Shown one piece after another: positions 1,918 through 5,643 of a stretch of 53,600 nucleotides of DNA. A model generated the notes under the pieces. It was not told where the DNA came from and did no database searches. It saw only the letters and a list, made by a program, of their open reading frames with translations. Within the stretch, counting starts at the first letter, position 1. Each line of letters opens with the position of its first letter. The DNA lies in the IMG/VR virus record IMGVR_UViG_3300047563_000009, positions 1-53,600 of that record. One strand, given 5' to 3'. The stretch comes from a virus. Lineage: Duplodnaviria; Caudoviricetes. Both the position numbers and the translations under genes were made by a program.

Positions 1918-2589
1918 ATGGCGTTCGAGCAAGATAAAGAAATCGCGCTCGAAACTTGTAAGCAGTGGCTTGAAGATTGTGATGCAGCTTATCTTGCCAA
2001 GGAAGATGTAATCATTTTCTGGACGCACTTTAATCCTGAATCTAAGCGTGGCGAATGGACACGTTATAAGATGAAGGAAGCTTGTCGAGTCATCAAAGCC
2101 ACTCGTGCAGGTTTTGCTGCAATGCGATTTATTAAGCCAGAGCTTGTAATGCTTGCCGCTCAGGAAACTGAGAGAGCATATAAGCAGGCTGTAAAATCCC
2201 GTTCAACTGTTCCTCCAGAATTCTTTAATTTGGAGCGCGCTGGTCACTTCAACAATTTTGAAATGTTGACTATGTGCATGTTGCAGGAATTAGTTGGAAG
2301 AGGATGGAACGTTGAGGCAGTTTGTCTTGGAAAGCTAATGAAAGAAGTATTCCAAACAAAAGGTTTCGCAGTTCCTAACCGTACTTTCCGCTGGAAGTTG
2401 CTTCGTGCAGTCGCAGAGGAGTCCGGTGTAATTATTCGTGACAGAACCAACCGAATGACCGTCACAGGTATTGGACGGTTTGTTGCGATTCAAGTTGATG
2501 GTATCGATGACTCCATCAAAGTTGAGTTCACCGTCGATGAGACGCAGGACTTGATAAATAAATCAATCGAACGATTTAAAAATATTTAG
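1918..2589 (+). CDS. hypothetical protein, 223 aa
   Basis: Long ORF in tight operon; no motif recognised. Confidence 0.8.
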   Translation: MAFEQDKEIALETCKQWLEDCDAAYLAKEDVIIFWTHFNPESKRGEWTRYKMKEACRVIKATRAGFAAMRFIKPELVMLAAQETERAYKQAVKSRSTVPPEFFNLERAGHFNNFEMLTMCMLQELVGRGWNVEAVCLGKLMKEVFQTKGFAVPNRTFRWKLLRAVAEESGVIIRDRTNRMTVTGIGRFVAIQVDGIDDSIKVEFTVDETQDLINKSIERFKNI

Positions 2590-2614
2590 TCGTTTGTAAT
2601 ATAGAGCAATATTC

Positions 2615-2632
2615 AACATTAGTTGGAATTGA
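2615..2632 (+). promoter_or_regulatory. putative phage-RNAP promoter motif copy
   Basis: AACATTAGTTGGAATTGA in the gap upstream of the 2704 gene and the ncRNA region. Confidence 0.6.
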
Positions 2633-2703
2633 TTCTTAGAGAAATACTTCTCAAAATTTTATTCCCGGCAAAATCGCCGCCAAACTTTAAGGTATTAAAT
2701 AAC

Positions 2704-3048
2704 ATGGCTATTGTACGTCAAATTACTCAGTATGAAGCAAAAGATGGTTCCGTATTCCTGACCGAAGCTGAGTGTGATGCTCATGAATTCATGCTGGATA
2801 ACAAAGCAGAAATCGACGCAGCTACCGAAGCATTCGTAAACACCATTGGTGCAGTTGGTCGTTCTCGTAACGGTAAAATCAACACCTCTTCCGAATTCCT
2901 GGCCTTCTACATTCCTTGGGTTGCTGCTGGCAAACCGGTTGTTGAACGTACTGTATTCGAGCCAGAAGTTGTTGAAGCTCCAGAAGCTGCCGCTGTTGCT
3001 GATGAAGCAGTTGCTGCTGCCGAAGGCGAAGAAGCTGCTGGCTTCTAA
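2704..3048 (+). CDS. hypothetical protein with acidic Ala/Glu-rich tail
   Basis: ATG2704 after AAGGT; codon usage like highly expressed genes. Confidence 0.8.
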   Translation: MAIVRQITQYEAKDGSVFLTEAECDAHEFMLDNKAEIDAATEAFVNTIGAVGRSRNGKINTSSEFLAFYIPWVAAGKPVVERTVFEPEVVEAPEAAAVADEAVAAAEGEEAAGF

Positions 3049-3093
3049 TATAAATTAATTCTGGTCTGCGGCGTAGGCAGTTGCCTAAGTCGA

Positions 3094-3125
3094 TTAAAGC
3101 CTGATACATTCGGGCTTTAAATTTT
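3094..3125 (+). terminator. hairpin / possible intrinsic terminator
   Basis: TTAAAGCCTGA-TACAT-TCGGGCTTTAA followed by ATTTT. Confidence 0.45.
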
Positions 3126-3128
3126 GAA

Positions 3129-3737
3129 CCCATTCCGACCCAGTTACGTTAAGAGCGTACCCAACTGGAGTGGGCTTCAATGAGTGTTCTTGTGATAAGC
3201 ATTTGGGAGACTGACCTATACCCAATCGTGCAAGGTCCAGACAAGAGCATTCATTGAAGTGTTAGATTGGTAGCGAGCGCTTCGCCCATTCCGTTGTTAA
3301 GTTGGAACCGAGATTAGCTCAACGCAACTTAGACGTGAGTGGGCTTCAATATGGATGTGCAATGGACGAACCCTTCTCCGATAAGAGAAGACAATTAGCT
3401 GGACGGACGTGCCCACTATTTCAGAACCAGGACCCATCACAGTAGTAGCGATTCACTACCGCGAAACAGTGTTGAATATTGGTAATGTTATTTGTGGAAG
3501 GGCACCAGTGAAAGTATATCCAGTAACAGTGGACGAAAAGTAGAGGTAGTGCTCGAAAAGTAGTTCCAGTCTGGTTTAAATACCAGAGTCCATATTGAAG
3601 TTGTGAGCACCTCAAAATGTGAAACCTCATTCTGCTGTAAAATACCTCAGCAGAGTGAGCTTCAATAAGCACGAGCTAGCGCGAAAGCCGAGGATACGAA
3701 CCTGTCAACGTTTGTTCTACAGGGTGCTTATTGAAGT
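3129..3737 (+). ncRNA. array of three structured RNA cassettes with shared frame C(C/T)CATTC..GAGTG(G/A)GCTTCAAT..cargo..ATTGAAGT
   Basis: Cargo-enclosing stems 3175-3193/3241-3259, 3344-3356/3588-3600, 3660-3672/3724-3736; each is preceded by a CATTC/GAGTG hairpin. Confidence 0.65.
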
Positions 3738-3783
3738 AGTTTTCTGAGTTTAGTAGTGATTATTTTTGCAAACTAAAATAAAT

Positions 3784-3816
3784 GCAAACGATTCTGAAAT
3801 ACGAGTTGCAGCTTAA
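3784..3816 (+). other. tmRNA-like proteolysis tag reading frame ANDSEIRVAA-stop
   Basis: AAAATAAAT-GCA AAC GAT TCT GAA ATA CGA GTT GCA GCT TAA; resembles E. coli tag ANDENYALAA; no tRNA-like domain found. Confidence 0.6.
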
Positions 3817-3921
3817 TTAAGTTTAAGTTCTCTCCGAGGTCTTTCGACTCCTTGTTACCAAATTCGACGCAGTGGCCCGCTGTGATTAATAATGGGCATC
3901 ACAATAACAACTGAGGTATTT

Positions 3922-4176
3922 ATGGTAATTAATCGCCCTAACCAAATCATGATGGATGTATTTGAAGTCCCTCAAGCAACAGTGTTCGAATTTCAAAACC
4001 GTCTGTTCCTTCGTGTACTTGAGATTGAACTGGCGAGTGTAGTTGGTAATGATTCCCTCCGCAATATCTTGGGTGTGGATGTGGAAAATGGTTGCTACTT
4101 TACGTCAAGTCGTGAAGCACCTATTGAAGCTCGTATGGTTGTAGTTCACCAACAAGCACACATCACGCTGGAGTAG
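3922..4176 (+). CDS. hypothetical protein
   Basis: ATG3922 after GAGGT. Confidence 0.7.
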   Translation: MVINRPNQIMMDVFEVPQATVFEFQNRLFLRVLEIELASVVGNDSLRNILGVDVENGCYFTSSREAPIEARMVVVHQQAHITLE

Positions 4177-4180
4177 TATA

Positions 4181-4429
4181 ATGGACATTTCATTGGAGTA
4201 TACGCGCCCAACATTGGGCAAAGAACGTATTATCTACATCCCTGAAATGAACGTTGTTGCGAAGGTTGGAAAGATTCAAGAAAATGGTAACTTCAAGTTC
4301 GACGCTTTAAATGGTGGTTGGAACGGGAGTTACGAAGCTGAAACGAATGCAGTTTATATTCGTGGCGAGCACAAGATTAAGCCAGTTACAATTCTGTATT
4401 TGGATTGGATAAGATGCCTCCAGACCTAA
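4181..4429 (+). CDS. hypothetical protein
   Basis: 82 aa ORF after GGAG. Confidence 0.7.
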   Translation: MDISLEYTRPTLGKERIIYIPEMNVVAKVGKIQENGNFKFDALNGGWNGSYEAETNAVYIRGEHKIKPVTILYLDWIRCLQT

Positions 4430-4613: not shown

Positions 4614-4697
4614 GTCTGTGGAACTCCGAATTGTAGCGGAGGTATTGGGCAGCAATGCCGAATATGGCACTGGGTTCAAGTCCCGGCACAGACGCCA
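4614..4697 (+). ncRNA. tRNA-like RNA without a canonical anticodon loop
   Basis: Acceptor GTCTGTG/CACAGAC-G-CCA; T-arm CTGGG-TTCAAGT-CCCGG; D-like CTCCG/CGGAG; central arm GGCA-GCAA-TGCC. Confidence 0.65.
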
Positions 4698-4702
4698 AAC
4701 AA

Positions 4703-4789: not shown

Positions 4790-5050
4790 ATGCTCACCAA
4801 ACTACAAGCAATTCTTGTGGGATTCCTGACCCTCATTGGAATTGGTATTGCAGTATTCTTCAAAGGTCGTGCAAGCGGCAAGCAAGAAGTTCAGCAAGAA
4901 GTTGTGAAAGAGCAAACCAAAGCTGTTGAAGAGGTTGCACAGCAGCGTGTAGATAGTGTGAAGGTGGTGAAAGATGTACAACAAAAAGTTATTAACAGTT
5001 CTGATTCGGCAATCGATAAAGAACTATCAGATGACTGGACAAGGCCATGA
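4790..5050 (+). CDS. inner-membrane spanin (Rz-like)
   Basis: N-terminal TM helix then coiled coil; overlaps a downstream lipoprotein gene. Confidence 0.75.
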   Translation: MLTKLQAILVGFLTLIGIGIAVFFKGRASGKQEVQQEVVKEQTKAVEEVAQQRVDSVKVVKDVQQKVINSSDSAIDKELSDDWTRP

Positions 5051-5569: not shown

Positions 5570-5643
5570 GGACGCATGTCAGAAAGGCTATGTGGCAGAT
5601 TGCAAACCTGCTTATACTGGTTCGATTCCAGTTGTGTCCTCCA
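5570..5643 (+). tRNA. tRNA-Cys(GCA)
   Basis: Acceptor GGACGCA/TGTGTCC, U discriminator, CCA; anticodon loop TTGCAAA; T-arm ACTGG-TTCGATT-CCAGT. Confidence 0.9.

What the first reader, a model, noticed from the sequence alone, without database searches (positions are those of the whole stretch)
3129..3737. Tandem array of three RNA cassettes: conserved covarying double-stem frame carrying unrelated cargoes
Seen: each unit has hairpin A, C(C/T)CATTC...GAGTG(G/A)G (3129/3174, 3285/3343, 3626/3659). It abuts with no spacer on stem B, CTTCAAT.../...ATTGAAG (19, 13 and 13 bp). Stem B encloses a different cargo each time: 47 nt (3194-3240), 231 nt (3357-3587) and 51 nt (3673-3723). Unit 3 shows a compensatory C-G to U-A change in hairpin A, and the distal half of stem B differs completely between units yet always pairs. 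Each 3' arm ATTGAAGT could also pair with the next unit's GCTTCAAT, so the units are switchable or interlocked. Established: CAUUC/GAGUG is the upper-stem sequence of the T7 RNase III site R1.1. Inference: a modular small-RNA expression array cut by RNase III or recognised by a phage protein. It could release decoy RNAs (antitoxin mimics, RNA anti-CRISPRs, protein sponges), organised like repeat/spacer but with structured cargo. I do not recognise it as a named family.
Basis: partly seen in the sequence, partly recalled or inferred. Interest (0 to 1): 0.88.

Follow-up and report, generated by a model that had tools for sequence, protein, structure and literature searches.

The report
Phage tmRNA-like RNA with modular cassettes
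The three stem-closed RNA modules are real, swappable structural cassettes sitting directly in front of a conserved phage RNA that looks like the tag-encoding body of bacterial tmRNA without its tRNA-like part, a widespread family I could not find described.

Summary
Three units, each a hairpin A abutting a closing stem B, lie at 3129-3259, 3285-3600 and 3626-3736. They enclose 47, 231 and 51 nt. They fold far better than shuffles, and better on the + strand than on the - strand for the two units tested. All stem mismatches are G:U on the + strand.

Twelve phages (11 Chaseviridae-type, one Ackermannviridae) gave 14 such units with 8 cargo classes. A metagenome contig joins unit 1's frame directly to unit 3's.

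Positions 3738-3897 hold a conserved core found by blastn in 235 phage records and in 137 of 5426 E. coli genomes. It carries a 10-codon frame starting at GCA (ANDSEIRVAA*) that resembles the E. coli tmRNA tag. Substitutions in it are biased towards synonymous changes. Its stop codon lies in a hairpin loop, and two covarying pseudoknots follow. No tRNA-like domain is attached, and it stays below every Rfam threshold.

Best reading: the cassettes are exchangeable accessory domains of a multi-domain stable-RNA locus whose constant part is a tmRNA-like body lacking the tRNA-like domain. How the RNA is processed and what the cargoes do remain inferred. RNase III involvement is untested.

The parts
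3094..3120 (+). Hairpin after the upstream gene (2704-3048), followed by AAATTTT. It may be a weak terminator or the 5' boundary of the locus.
   Evidence: Inverted repeat I11. It was not called by the terminator scan. Relatives have a hairpin and then the conserved sequence TTGAAYCC in front of hairpin A.
3129..3174 (+). Hairpin A of unit 1 (CCCATTCC / GGAGTGGG, about 30-nt loop)
3175..3259 (+). Unit 1: stem B of 19 bp (2 G:U) enclosing cargo 1, a 47-nt pseudoknot domain (3194-3240)
   Evidence: Cargo 1 was found in 6 of the 11 Chaseviridae-type loci scanned, with the loop/downstream pairing GACC:GGTC here and GGCC:GGCC in the other five.
3260..3284 (+). Linker 1, mostly single-stranded
3285..3343 (+). 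Hairpin A of unit 2, with a long extended loop
3344..3600 (+). Unit 2: stem B of 13 bp enclosing cargo 2, a conserved 231-nt structured RNA of unknown class
   Evidence: Homologues in phiA050, Mangalitsa/TH53 and IMG/VR locus L132. RNAalifold on 4 sequences gives 58 pairs, 11 of them with compensatory changes.
3601..3625 (+). Linker 2
3626..3659 (+). Hairpin A of unit 3 (12 bp). Its loop, AAATACCTCAG, is 11/11 complementary to 3911-3921.
   Evidence: (I10)
3660..3736 (+). Unit 3: stem B of 13 bp enclosing cargo 3 (51 nt). No homologue was found.
3738..3783 (+). 5' part of the core. It holds the motif AGTTTTC (GTTTTC invariant in 30 of 30 aligned cores), a predicted helix or pseudoknot, and ATAAAT before the resume codon.
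   Evidence: In Bas78, SUSP2 and MK54 a sigma-70-type promoter ends about 6-11 nt before this motif.
3784..3816 (+). tmRNA-like tag frame: GCA AAC GAT TCT GAA ATA CGA GTT GCA GCT TAA = ANDSEIRVAA*
3812..3827 (+). Hairpin like tmRNA helix 5 (CTTAA / TTAAG); the stop codon forms part of its 5' arm
   Evidence: Read. In other lineages the stop codon lies in the hairpin loop, and the E. coli arrangement is shown.
3835..3867 (+). Pseudoknot: S1 3835-3839 / 3850-3854; loop bases 3844-3847 pair with 3864-3867
3868..3897 (+). Pseudoknot: S1 3868-3873 / 3879-3884; S2 3875-3878 / 3894-3897; conserved loop ATTAATAAT
4614..4700 (+). Unannotated tRNA-like element, possibly associated with the locus. It has a 7-bp acceptor stem, T arm and G-CCA, with a GCAA tetraloop hairpin where the anticodon arm should be.
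   Evidence: It was not called by ARAGORN.

Best explanation
The three cassettes are independently folding RNA domains. Each consists of a cargo closed by a long helix (stem B) and preceded by a hairpin. Together they form the variable 5' part of one non-coding stable-RNA locus of about 770 nt (3129-3897) on the + strand.

The constant part of this locus is a tmRNA-like body at 3738-3897. It has a conserved 5' motif, a 10-codon tag frame that begins at a GCA resume codon, a stop codon in a helix-5-like hairpin, and two H-type pseudoknots. It has no tRNA-like domain.

Shown:
- the structure, its strand and its covariation;
- the tag frame and its bias towards synonymous change;
- the linkage of the modules to the core in 12 phages;
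- gain, loss and exchange of modules at the conserved frame (outer CTTC/GAAG).

Inferred:
- The locus is transcribed as one precursor, in the way phage tRNA clusters are.
- It is cut in the single-stranded linkers and at the AG|UUUUC junction, which fits the RNase E motif as I recall it.
- In other phages it is also cut at adjacent tRNAs or tRNA-like elements by RNase P.
- These cuts release the tmRNA-like core and stable module RNAs.
- The conserved frame serves as the folding, processing and recombination boundary.
- The core supplies or mimics a trans-translation tag template. The cargoes are accessory domains whose own activities are unknown.
For: Structure and strand.

Modularity. Stem B closes in 14 of 14 units from 12 phages. 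The outer CTTC/GAAG is invariant, and AAT/ATT becomes TGG/CCA in Navette and SSEM1. There are 8 cargo classes. Architectures differ between phages. Cargo 4 occurs with different closing stems in Faunus versus Mangalitsa and PYps4T. One 16-kb contig joins 3173 directly to 3659, skipping 485 nt.

Core distribution. blastn finds it in 235 phage records and in 137 of 5426 E. coli genomes. The one E. coli hit inspected lies between the prophage Q gene and the lysis genes.

Core content. There are 35 distinct cores, and all have 10 codons plus a stop.

Tag frame. Synonymous/non-synonymous counts are 68/90 in the tag frame against 15/153 and 23/139 in the other two frames. Those frames have internal stops in 20 of 24 and 18 of 24 unique tags.

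Pseudoknots. 97.2% of cells are paired against 87.0% in shuffles (0 of 500 reach it). 12 of 19 pairs have compensatory changes. Controls with the partner slid by 1-3 columns pair in 48% of cells or fewer.

Rfam. tmRNA models hit the tag region repeatedly below threshold: 22.7 bits in the window and 26-31 bits in relatives, against a gathering score of 47.

Tag and upstream bases. The E. coli tag region reads GCA AAC GAC GAA AAC UAC GCU UUA GCA GCU UAA. Both E. coli and the phage have U at -5 and A at -4.

Genomic setting. The core lies in tRNA clusters or next to tRNA-like elements. Promoters abut AGTTTTC in Bas78, SUSP2 and MK54.

RNA libraries. Contigs from RNA-library runs of 3 studies hold a relative's unit 1 plus core. 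This is not proof of transcription.
Against: - No RNA ends or cleavage sites were seen. All runs laid were contigs.
- No promoter or terminator stands out in the window.
- The core lacks a tRNA-like domain, G3:U70 and CCA. ARAGORN calls no tmRNA in the window or in 16 relatives' loci. No partner for the 5' motif was found. How a ribosome could use the tag frame is therefore unexplained.
- The phage has no SmpB.
- All Rfam tmRNA hits are below threshold.
- Cargo functions are unknown. Cargo 3 has no homologue, so selection on it is unshown.
- One of 35 cores (L024) has a broken pair in the first pseudoknot stem.
Confidence: 0.6

Rival explanations
1. The array is a small-RNA expression array cut by RNase III at the junction of hairpin A and stem B, a T7 R1.1-like signal. 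The released cargoes act as decoys (anti-defence RNAs, antitoxin mimics, protein sponges).
For: Hairpin A shares CAUUC/GAGUG, including the U:G pair, with the T7 hairpin GGUCAUUC-GCAA-GAGUGGCC. Hairpin A stacked on stem B would give 20-27 bp of helix. The cargoes are diverse and exchangeable.
Against: Identity with T7 is 5 bp only. In Mangalitsa and PYps4T the later modules have no hairpin A. In L132 it is reduced to about 4-5 bp, and in Ag3 it is a different 5-bp hairpin. It is therefore not needed for every cargo. The flanks of hairpin A do not form the lower stem that R1.1 has. No cleavage data exist. No cargo matches a known decoy or any Rfam family.
Confidence: 0.2
2. The cassettes are not released. 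They stay attached as structural domains of one large RNA, as pseudoknots PK2-PK4 do in tmRNA. They would stabilise it against nucleases or help it fold or dock on the ribosome.
For: The modules always adjoin the core, either 5' or 3' of it. In Faunus and L132 the 3' arm of stem B overlaps the core's AGTTTTC motif. Cargo 1 is itself a pseudoknot on a long helix. BSBP01 carries only a plain hairpin there.
Against: SUSP2, Bas78 and MK54 start the RNA at the core with no 5' module, so 5' modules are dispensable for the core. Module number ranges from 0 to 3.
Confidence: 0.25
3. The cassettes are selfish or neutral insertions that spread by recombination at the conserved closing helix of an RNA gene. 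They have no function of their own.
For: Modules are gained, lost and exchanged at the frame. In Pel53 an HNH endonuclease ORF sits exactly at the junction between stem B and the core. Cargo 3 is unique to this phage lineage.
Against: Cargoes 1 and 2 are conserved with compensatory changes across genera. The stems keep G:U-tolerant, RNA-level pairing on one strand only. No target-site duplication and no transposase is present.
Confidence: 0.1
4. The array is a cis-regulator of the downstream gene at 3922. The loop of unit 3's hairpin A pairs with that gene's ribosome-binding site.
For: There is 11/11 complementarity between 3640-3650 and 3911-3921 (I10). The best duplex is -24.0 kcal/mol against a shuffle mean of -19.0.
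Against: 3% of shuffles do as well, and the number of complementary sites is not enriched. The pairing is not seen in phiA050. It does not explain the conserved core.
Confidence: 0.05

Closest known systems
tmRNA (SsrA), one-piece form, Rfam RF00023
   Same: It has a tag frame beginning at a GCA resume codon with no start codon. The frame has 10 codons with an AND/ANE start and an A-rich end. U and A lie at -5 and -4. The stop codon lies in a hairpin, and pseudoknots follow. The E. coli comparison comes.
   Different: There is no acceptor stem, T arm, CCA or G3:U70 joined to the body. The element is about 160 nt rather than 363. It scores 7.3 bits against a gathering score of 47. ARAGORN does not call it. 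It is phage-encoded and flanked by exchangeable stem-closed modules.
Two-piece (circularly permuted) tmRNA, RF04321 / RF01849-51
   Same: These are the best Rfam matches (22.7-31 bits). The coding part is a separate stretch from the tRNA-like part. In Navette and in the lambdoid, Bas78 and MK54 loci a tRNA-like minihelix lies on the same strand nearby.
   Different: In permuted genes the tRNA-like part comes first, and the coding piece carries the 5' acceptor strand. Here any tRNA-like element lies 3' of the body, is self-contained and lacks G3:U70. In this window it lies about 700 nt away, beyond two ORFs. All scores are below threshold.
Mycobacteriophage DS6A tmRNA (tRNA-like domain only)
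   Same: It is a phage-encoded partial tmRNA. It is reported to inhibit host tmRNA when a similar molecule is expressed (passages of PMC4131195 and PMC11915505).
   Different: It is the opposite half. DS6A keeps the tRNA-like domain and lacks the tag frame. This family keeps the tag frame and pseudoknots and lacks the tRNA-like domain.
T7 RNase III processing signal R1.1
   Same: It has the upper-stem sequence CAUUC/GAGUG with the same U:G pair. That this T7 hairpin is R1.1 is recalled; the record does not annotate it.
   Different: R1.1 has its own lower stem and internal loop. Hairpin A instead abuts a long-range helix that encloses a cargo. No cleavage has been shown.
Phage tRNA-cluster stable RNAs (for example the T4 tRNA-region small RNAs; recalled, not checked here)
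   Same: These are structured non-tRNA RNAs co-located with tRNA genes and presumably matured by host tRNA-processing nucleases.
   Different: Here there is a defined modular frame and a tmRNA-like tag template.

Membership tests
tmRNA (RF00023 / RF04321) | Reaches the curated Rfam score | tested here: not met
   Window: RF04321 22.7 bits and RF01849 17 bits; RF00023 7.3 bits. Gathering scores are 47-50. Relatives reach at most 31 bits.
tmRNA (RF00023 / RF04321) | tRNA-like domain (acceptor stem, T arm, 3' CCA) joined to the body | tested here: not met
   ARAGORN finds no tmRNA in the window or in 16 loci. A T-arm/acceptor scan of the whole window finds only tRNA-Cys and a tRNA-like element at 4614-4700.
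tmRNA (RF00023 / RF04321) | G3:U70 alanine identity pair | tested here: not met
   No candidate with a T arm, a 7-bp acceptor stem, CCA and G3:U70, apart from spurious long-range matches. The nearby tRNA-like elements have C3:G70 or U3:A70.
tmRNA (RF00023 / RF04321) | Tag reading frame resumed at an alanine codon, under peptide-level selection, ending in a stop codon at a hairpin | tested here: met
   35 of 35 cores have 10 codons plus a stop. Synonymous share is 68/158 against 15/168 and 23/162 in the other frames.
tmRNA (RF00023 / RF04321) | Pseudoknots around the tag | tested here: met
   Two 3' pseudoknots are supported by covariation. The 5' pseudoknot is only predicted by eye and was left inconclusive.
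tmRNA (RF00023 / RF04321) | Works with SmpB and is alanylated | not testable with these tools
   The phage has no SmpB gene. Use of the host's SmpB is unknown.
RNase III site of the T7 R1.1 type | Upper-stem sequence and U:G pair | tested here: met
   CAUUC/GAGUG occurs in units 1-3 and in the T7 record.
RNase III site of the T7 R1.1 type | Hairpin with its own lower stem and internal loop giving about two helical turns | tested here: inconclusive
   The flanks of hairpin A do not pair with each other. A stacked hairpin A plus stem B would give 20-27 bp with a strand break.
RNase III site of the T7 R1.1 type | Cleavage by RNase III | not testable with these tools
   Only contigs were available, so no ends could be seen.
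CRISPR array | Identical direct repeats with unstructured spacers, and a matching repeat family | tested here: not met
   The repeats are two halves of a helix around structured cargo. The CRISPR-DR16 hit is 16.2 bits, E 1.9.
DNA transposon / MITE | Terminal inverted repeats at DNA level | tested here: not met
   The arm mismatches are G:U on the + strand only, and the - strand folds worse.

The most novel reading that the evidence does not exclude
Enterobacterial phages of at least six lineages carry a new kind of tmRNA: a split gene with the message first. The tag-template body is made as its own RNA (3738-3897 here). It acts either with a separately encoded mini tRNA-like RNA or with the host tmRNA/SmpB machinery. 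Rescued ribosomes would then add a phage-chosen degron (ANDSEIRVAA, ANDDVVLMAA, ANEEMYLAVA and others). The stem-closed cassettes would be exchangeable accessory RNAs with activities of their own, such as protein-binding or anti-defence domains, shuffled between phages at a conserved helix.
Probability: 0.25. Interest if true: 0.92.

Novelty: new variant of a known kind. Interest (0 to 1): 0.8.

Why it matters
If the core really serves as a tag template, it would be the first tmRNA-type RNA that lacks the tRNA-like domain. It would show that phages interfere with, or borrow, bacterial ribosome rescue and degron tagging.

The idea is directly testable in K-12-infecting relatives: look for phage-tag peptides by mass spectrometry, and test dependence on ssrA, smpB and clpX.

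The family also fills stretches left without annotation, or called 'hypothetical protein', in the phage and prophage loci inspected here. One example is the leader of lambdoid late operons just upstream of the lysis genes.

The cassettes show an unusual, Lego-like way of building non-coding RNA: a conserved closing helix around interchangeable structured cargo. Cargo 2 (231 nt) and cargo 1 (a pseudoknot) are new structured RNA classes with covariation support.

Tried and rejected
1. A tRNA-like domain for the core. ARAGORN, Rfam, my own T-arm/acceptor scans and a search for a partner of the invariant 5' GUUUUC gave no consistent partner. tRNA-like minihelices lie near the core in Navette, the E. 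coli 55989 prophage (RF00023 20.2 bits, below threshold), HK620, Bas78, MK54, St11Ph5 and Ag3, and at window 4614-4700. They are not homologous to one another throughout, and none has G3:U70. I could not show that they pair with the core.

2. Identity of the cargoes. Rfam with E up to 10 gave nothing credible. Cargo 2 occurs only in 4 phage records, 2 IMG/VR loci and 0 genome contigs. Unit 3 with its flanks (3600-3745) gave no blastn hit.

3. Unit 3 loop versus the ribosome-binding site of ORF 3922. The result is marginal: 3% of shuffles do as well.

4. Promoter and terminator scan of 2500-4300: not above chance.

5. Protein-coding reading. The ORFs across the units are short, and the annotated 'hypothetical proteins' there in relatives differ between records (for example Mangalitsa_033). 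The frame that starts at the ATG overlapping the tag is not conserved in length. I rejected this reading.

L154, for example, lies in a coding region. I filtered them by script.

7. RNA ends. Only Logan contigs were available, so no starts, ends or strand could be read. Parts of the stretch without cover in those runs are no evidence.

8. Literature. Searches found no description of a tmRNA-like RNA in enterobacterial phages. PMC4131195 (passages) lists only Bacillus phage G and mycobacteriophages as phages with ssrA. PMC11915505 (passages) counts 79 phage tmRNA sequences. Its supplementary tables, which I could not see, may bear on whether any member of this family is already listed. PMC9119081, PMC10612097 and PMC12210895 mention tmRNA only in a reference to ARAGORN. 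PMC11090510 and PMC6207430 (passages) are not relevant.

10. The script had a faulty pattern and was rerun.
Full report
**1. Checking the observation**

The sequence at 3129-3737 is as described. Each unit has a hairpin A that runs without a spacer into the 5' arm of a long-range helix, stem B.

- Hairpin A reads CCCATTCC.../...GGAGTGGG in unit 1, CCCATTC/GAGTGGG in unit 2 and CTCATTCTGCTG/CAGCAGAGTGAG in unit 3.
- Stem B has 19, 13 and 13 bp. It encloses 47, 231 and 51 nt.

The frame 14-mer is confined to this locus: 3 of its 4 matches at up to 2 mismatches are the units. The expectation is 0.43, and 0 of 100 shuffles reach 4.

The units fold much better than dinucleotide shuffles. The z-scores are -6.4, -4.3 and -6.2. 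The - strand gives only -2.4 for unit 1 and -3.8 for unit 3; unit 2 was not folded on the - strand. The non-Watson-Crick positions of the stems are G:U on the + strand.

In a fold of the whole locus (3120-3915; -251.7 kcal/mol, z -6.4) every unit keeps its own stem B. The alternative pairing of a 3' arm with the next 5' arm exists (I9) but is not favoured.

**2. What lies next to the array**

Immediately 3' of unit 3 the sequence continues AGTTTTC...ATAAAT GCA AAC GAT TCT GAA ATA CGA GTT GCA GCT TAA. A permissive Rfam scan gave sub-threshold matches of two tmRNA models to exactly this stretch: tmRNA_permuted at 22.7 bits (E 0.024) and alpha_tmRNA at 17 bits. The gathering-threshold scan found only the tRNA-Cys at 5570.

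blastn with 3727-3925 found 235 phage records. They include:

- Chaseviridae;
- Ounavirinae (SUSP2, Michonne);
- Gamaleyavirus (St11Ph5, PGN829.1);
- Skatevirus and Bas78;
- the Ackermannviridae phage Ag3;
- lambdoid and P22-like phages (HK620);
- Klebsiella and Cronobacter siphoviruses.

It also hit 137 of 5426 complete E. coli genomes. The one hit I inspected, in strain 55989, lies between the prophage Q gene and the lysis genes.

In SUSP2 and Michonne the element sits between tRNA-Ile and tRNA-Arg. In HK620 it lies between pR'/qut and S. In MK54 it is followed by two stretches that I read by eye as tRNA genes.

**3. The core is a tmRNA-like body**

From the loci fetched I extracted 35 distinct cores. 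All 35 have a frame of exactly 10 codons that starts at GCA and ends in TAA, TGA or TAG. The tags are ANDSEIRVAA, ANDSEMRVAA, ANDSEMRMVA, ANDNVFLAVA, ANEEMYLAVA, ANEEVYLAVA, ANEEMYLAAA, ANDEQFLAVA, ANDDQFLAVA, ANDDVVLMAA, ANDDVILMAA, ANDDLMLMAA and ANDDLMLAAA. Navette, seen later, has ANDNEMRAAA.

The E. coli tmRNA, fetched and aligned, reads GCA AAC GAC GAA AAC UAC GCU UUA GCA GCU UAA UAA, that is ANDENYALAA. Both have U at -5 and A at -4 before the resume codon.

Among closely related pairs of the 24 unique tag regions:

- Differences are synonymous in 68 of 158 cases in this frame. The other frames give 15 of 168 and 23 of 162.
- Third codon positions vary most: 2.8 distinct bases, against 1.9 and 1.6.
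- The other two frames contain internal stops in 20 of 24 and 18 of 24.

The frame from the overlapping ATG has no conserved length. The stop codon lies in or beside a small hairpin, as it does in E. coli helix 5.

Two H-type pseudoknots lie downstream. In the first, a 5-bp hairpin's loop pairs with the conserved ...UUCGGCG. The pairs seen are CCGA/UCGG, UCGA/UCGA here, CCAA/UUGG and CCAG/CUGG. In the second, helix CGCAnU/GnUGUG interlocks with a variable helix (GCCC/GGGC here; 8 different complementary stems overall), and the loop AUUAAUAA is conserved.

On alignment A1 (30 of the 35 cores), 97.2% of cells pair, against 87.0% in shuffles (0 of 500 reach it). 12 of 19 pairs show changes on both sides. 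Sliding the partner by 1-3 columns drops pairing to 27-48%. One core, L024, has a broken pair in the first stem.

**4. What the core lacks**

- ARAGORN finds no tmRNA in the window or in 16 relatives' loci.
- RF00023 scores 7.3 bits in this genome.
- A scan of the whole window for a T arm plus a 7-bp acceptor stem finds only the tRNA-Cys and a tRNA-like element at 4614-4700. That element has C3:G70 and a GCAA tetraloop hairpin in place of the anticodon arm.
- No partner for the invariant 5' GUUUUC was found.
- The phage has no SmpB gene.

In other lineages a tRNA-like minihelix lies 3' of the core.

- In Navette it follows directly.
- In the 55989 prophage it comes after one module. It hits RF00023 at 20.2 bits (E 3e-6 in that small search), below threshold.
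- HK620, Bas78 and MK54 have a conserved acceptor-like pairing UGUGGUG/CACCACA.
- None has G3:U70, and I could not show pairing with the core.

The element is therefore not a tmRNA by the family's defining features. It does carry the message part and pseudoknots of one.

**5. The cassettes in relatives**

The core is the constant part, and the modules vary.

| Phage | Architecture |
|---|---|
| ST32 | hairpin A + stem B[cargo 1] + core |
| phiA050, L132 | hairpin A (weak in L132) + stem B[cargo 2] + core |
| Mangalitsa | A-B[cargo 1], B[cargo 2] without hairpin A, a cargo-4 module with another closing stem, core |
| PYps4T | A-B[cargo 5], cargo-4 module, core |
| Faunus | A-B[cargo 4], core, then a cargo-1 module 3' of the core |
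| BSBP01 | A-B closing only a plain hairpin, core |
| Pel53 | as BSBP01, but with an HNH endonuclease ORF between the 3' arm of stem B and AGTTTTC |
| Navette, SSEM1 | A-B[155-nt cargo] with stem B changed from CTTCAAT/ATTGAAG to CTTCTGG/CCAGAAG, a second module, core, tRNA-like element, and a cargo-1 module further on |
| Ag3 (another family) | a different 5-bp hairpin abutting GCTTCAAT...ATTGAAGT around a 200-nt cargo, 3' of its core |

Stem B forms in 14 of 14 units in the minimum-energy fold. In Pel53 only 4 bp form before a mismatch.

Lambdoid, Gamaleyavirus and siphovirus members use another closing helix, AGGTAAGAGCAT.../...GTGCTCTTTCC, around further cargoes on either side of the core. 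One of those cargoes recurs in SUSP2 with yet another stem.

A 16,055-nt contig of run X8 matches 3050-3173 with no differences. It continues directly at 3659, skipping 485 nt, and 8 letters at the joint are shared by both sides. This is a natural one-unit variant made by recombination between the repeated frames.

Contigs of three RNA-library runs (X16, X18, X20; three studies) hold a relative in which an identical unit 1 (3169-3260, no differences) is followed by AGTTTTC and the core. The tool warns that this does not prove transcription.

**6. The cargoes**

- Cargo 1 is conserved in 6 of the 11 Chaseviridae-type loci scanned, with motifs GATTAG...GGGAGG..GGCCGATGCCC...GGCCCAG. The loop/downstream pairing is GACC:GGTC here and GGCC:GGCC elsewhere, so it is a pseudoknot on a long stem.
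- Cargo 2 (231-238 nt) aligns in 4 phages at 84% column identity. It gives 58 predicted pairs, 11 with compensatory changes. It matches no Rfam family and nothing in the genome collection.
- Cargo 3 has no homologue in the phage collection.

**7. How it most likely works**

Shown: this is a + strand, multi-domain structured RNA locus. It consists of exchangeable stem-closed modules plus a constant tmRNA-like body whose tag frame evolves as translated sequence does.

Inferred:

- The locus is one stable-RNA precursor.
- In Bas78, SUSP2 and MK54 a TTGACA-17-TAGATT or TATAGT promoter ends about 6-11 nt before AGTTTTC. That motif therefore marks the 5' end of the core.
- Where modules precede the core, a cut at AG|UUUU would free it. 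This fits the RNase E preference as I recall it.
- Adjacent tRNAs or tRNA-like elements would give RNase P-made 3' ends.
- Hairpin A resembles the upper stem of the T7 hairpin that I recall as RNase III site R1.1. The match is 5 bp, and hairpin A is missing from later modules in Mangalitsa and PYps4T. I rate RNase III as possible, not likely.

What the core does without a tRNA-like domain is open. It could be a template used together with a separate tRNA-like RNA or with host tmRNA/SmpB. It could also be a mimic that titrates trans-translation factors.

Context: genes of unknown function lie upstream (phrog_13087, phrog_17419), and an Rz-like spanin lies at 4790. In lambdoid phages too, the element lies just upstream of the lysis genes.

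**8. Novelty**

- No Rfam family reaches threshold.
- Eight literature searches found no description.
- The 2014 tmRNA census lists only Bacillus phage G and mycobacteriophages among phages (PMC4131195, passages).
- The 2025 database counts 79 phage sequences (PMC11915505, passages). I could not see its supplement.

I file the locus as a new variant of a known kind (tmRNA-related), with a modular cassette organisation that has no named counterpart.

Noticed in passing
window 4614-4700 (+): Unannotated tRNA-like RNA. It has a 7-bp acceptor stem GTCTGTG/CACAGAC, T arm CTGGG-TTCAAGT-CCCGG and G-CCA, but a GCAA tetraloop hairpin where the anticodon arm should be. The only weak Rfam hit is mascRNA at 21.5 bits. 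Faunus has a similar element.
   Followed up: partly
window 3640-3650 and 3911-3921: The loop of unit 3's hairpin A is 11/11 complementary to the Shine-Dalgarno region of the ORF starting at 3922. The duplex is -24 kcal/mol, and 3% of shuffled targets do as well.
   Followed up: yes
L256 (phage Pel53) 575-1060: An HNH endonuclease ORF is inserted exactly between the 3' arm of stem B and the AGTTTTC start of the core. GAAGT occurs on both sides of it. Stem B has a mismatch there.
   Followed up: no
L007 (E. coli 55989 prophage) 2690-2830; L005 (HK620); L127 (Bas78); L260 (MK54): A conserved tRNA-like minihelix lies 3' of the core and modules. The acceptor-like pairing is UGUGGUG/C(A/G)CCACA. 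The T arm has either a canonical T loop (55989) or a 9-nt loop ..GAUCAG.. with covarying stems. The tails are ACCC, GCCA or ACAC.
   Followed up: partly
L254 (Navette) about 1243-1305: A 62-nt mini tRNA-like element (GGTTGGT ... CTCGG-TTCGATT-CCGAG ACCGACC A) starts about 8 nt after the last pseudoknot of the core. It has no anticodon arm and no encoded CCA.
   Followed up: no
L007 2375-2440; L260 518-580; L004 1660-1700: The same small cargo (..CCCTTATGGGGCTTGGCTTAAATGCA..) is enclosed by different closing stems in lambdoid/siphovirus phages and in SUSP2. The hairpin motif GGYTTAAATRCC also ends cargo 2.
   Followed up: no
L129 (Ag3) 1577-1686: Sub-threshold match to the Salmonella sRNA family STnc100 (33.7 bits against a gathering score of 47), in the non-coding stretch downstream of the Ag3 core and modules.
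   Followed up: no
L127 (Bas78) 811-1337; L126 (ZBSTP8) 749-1042; L002 (Mangalitsa) 1550-1759: Annotated 'hypothetical protein' CDSs overlap the RNA locus, some on the opposite strand. They are probably mis-annotations.
   Followed up: no
window 2704-3048: The 114-aa protein (phrog_17419, unknown function) lies directly upstream of the RNA locus in the Chaseviridae loci where the upstream region was read (window, phiA050, ST32, PYps4T, Faunus).
   Followed up: partly
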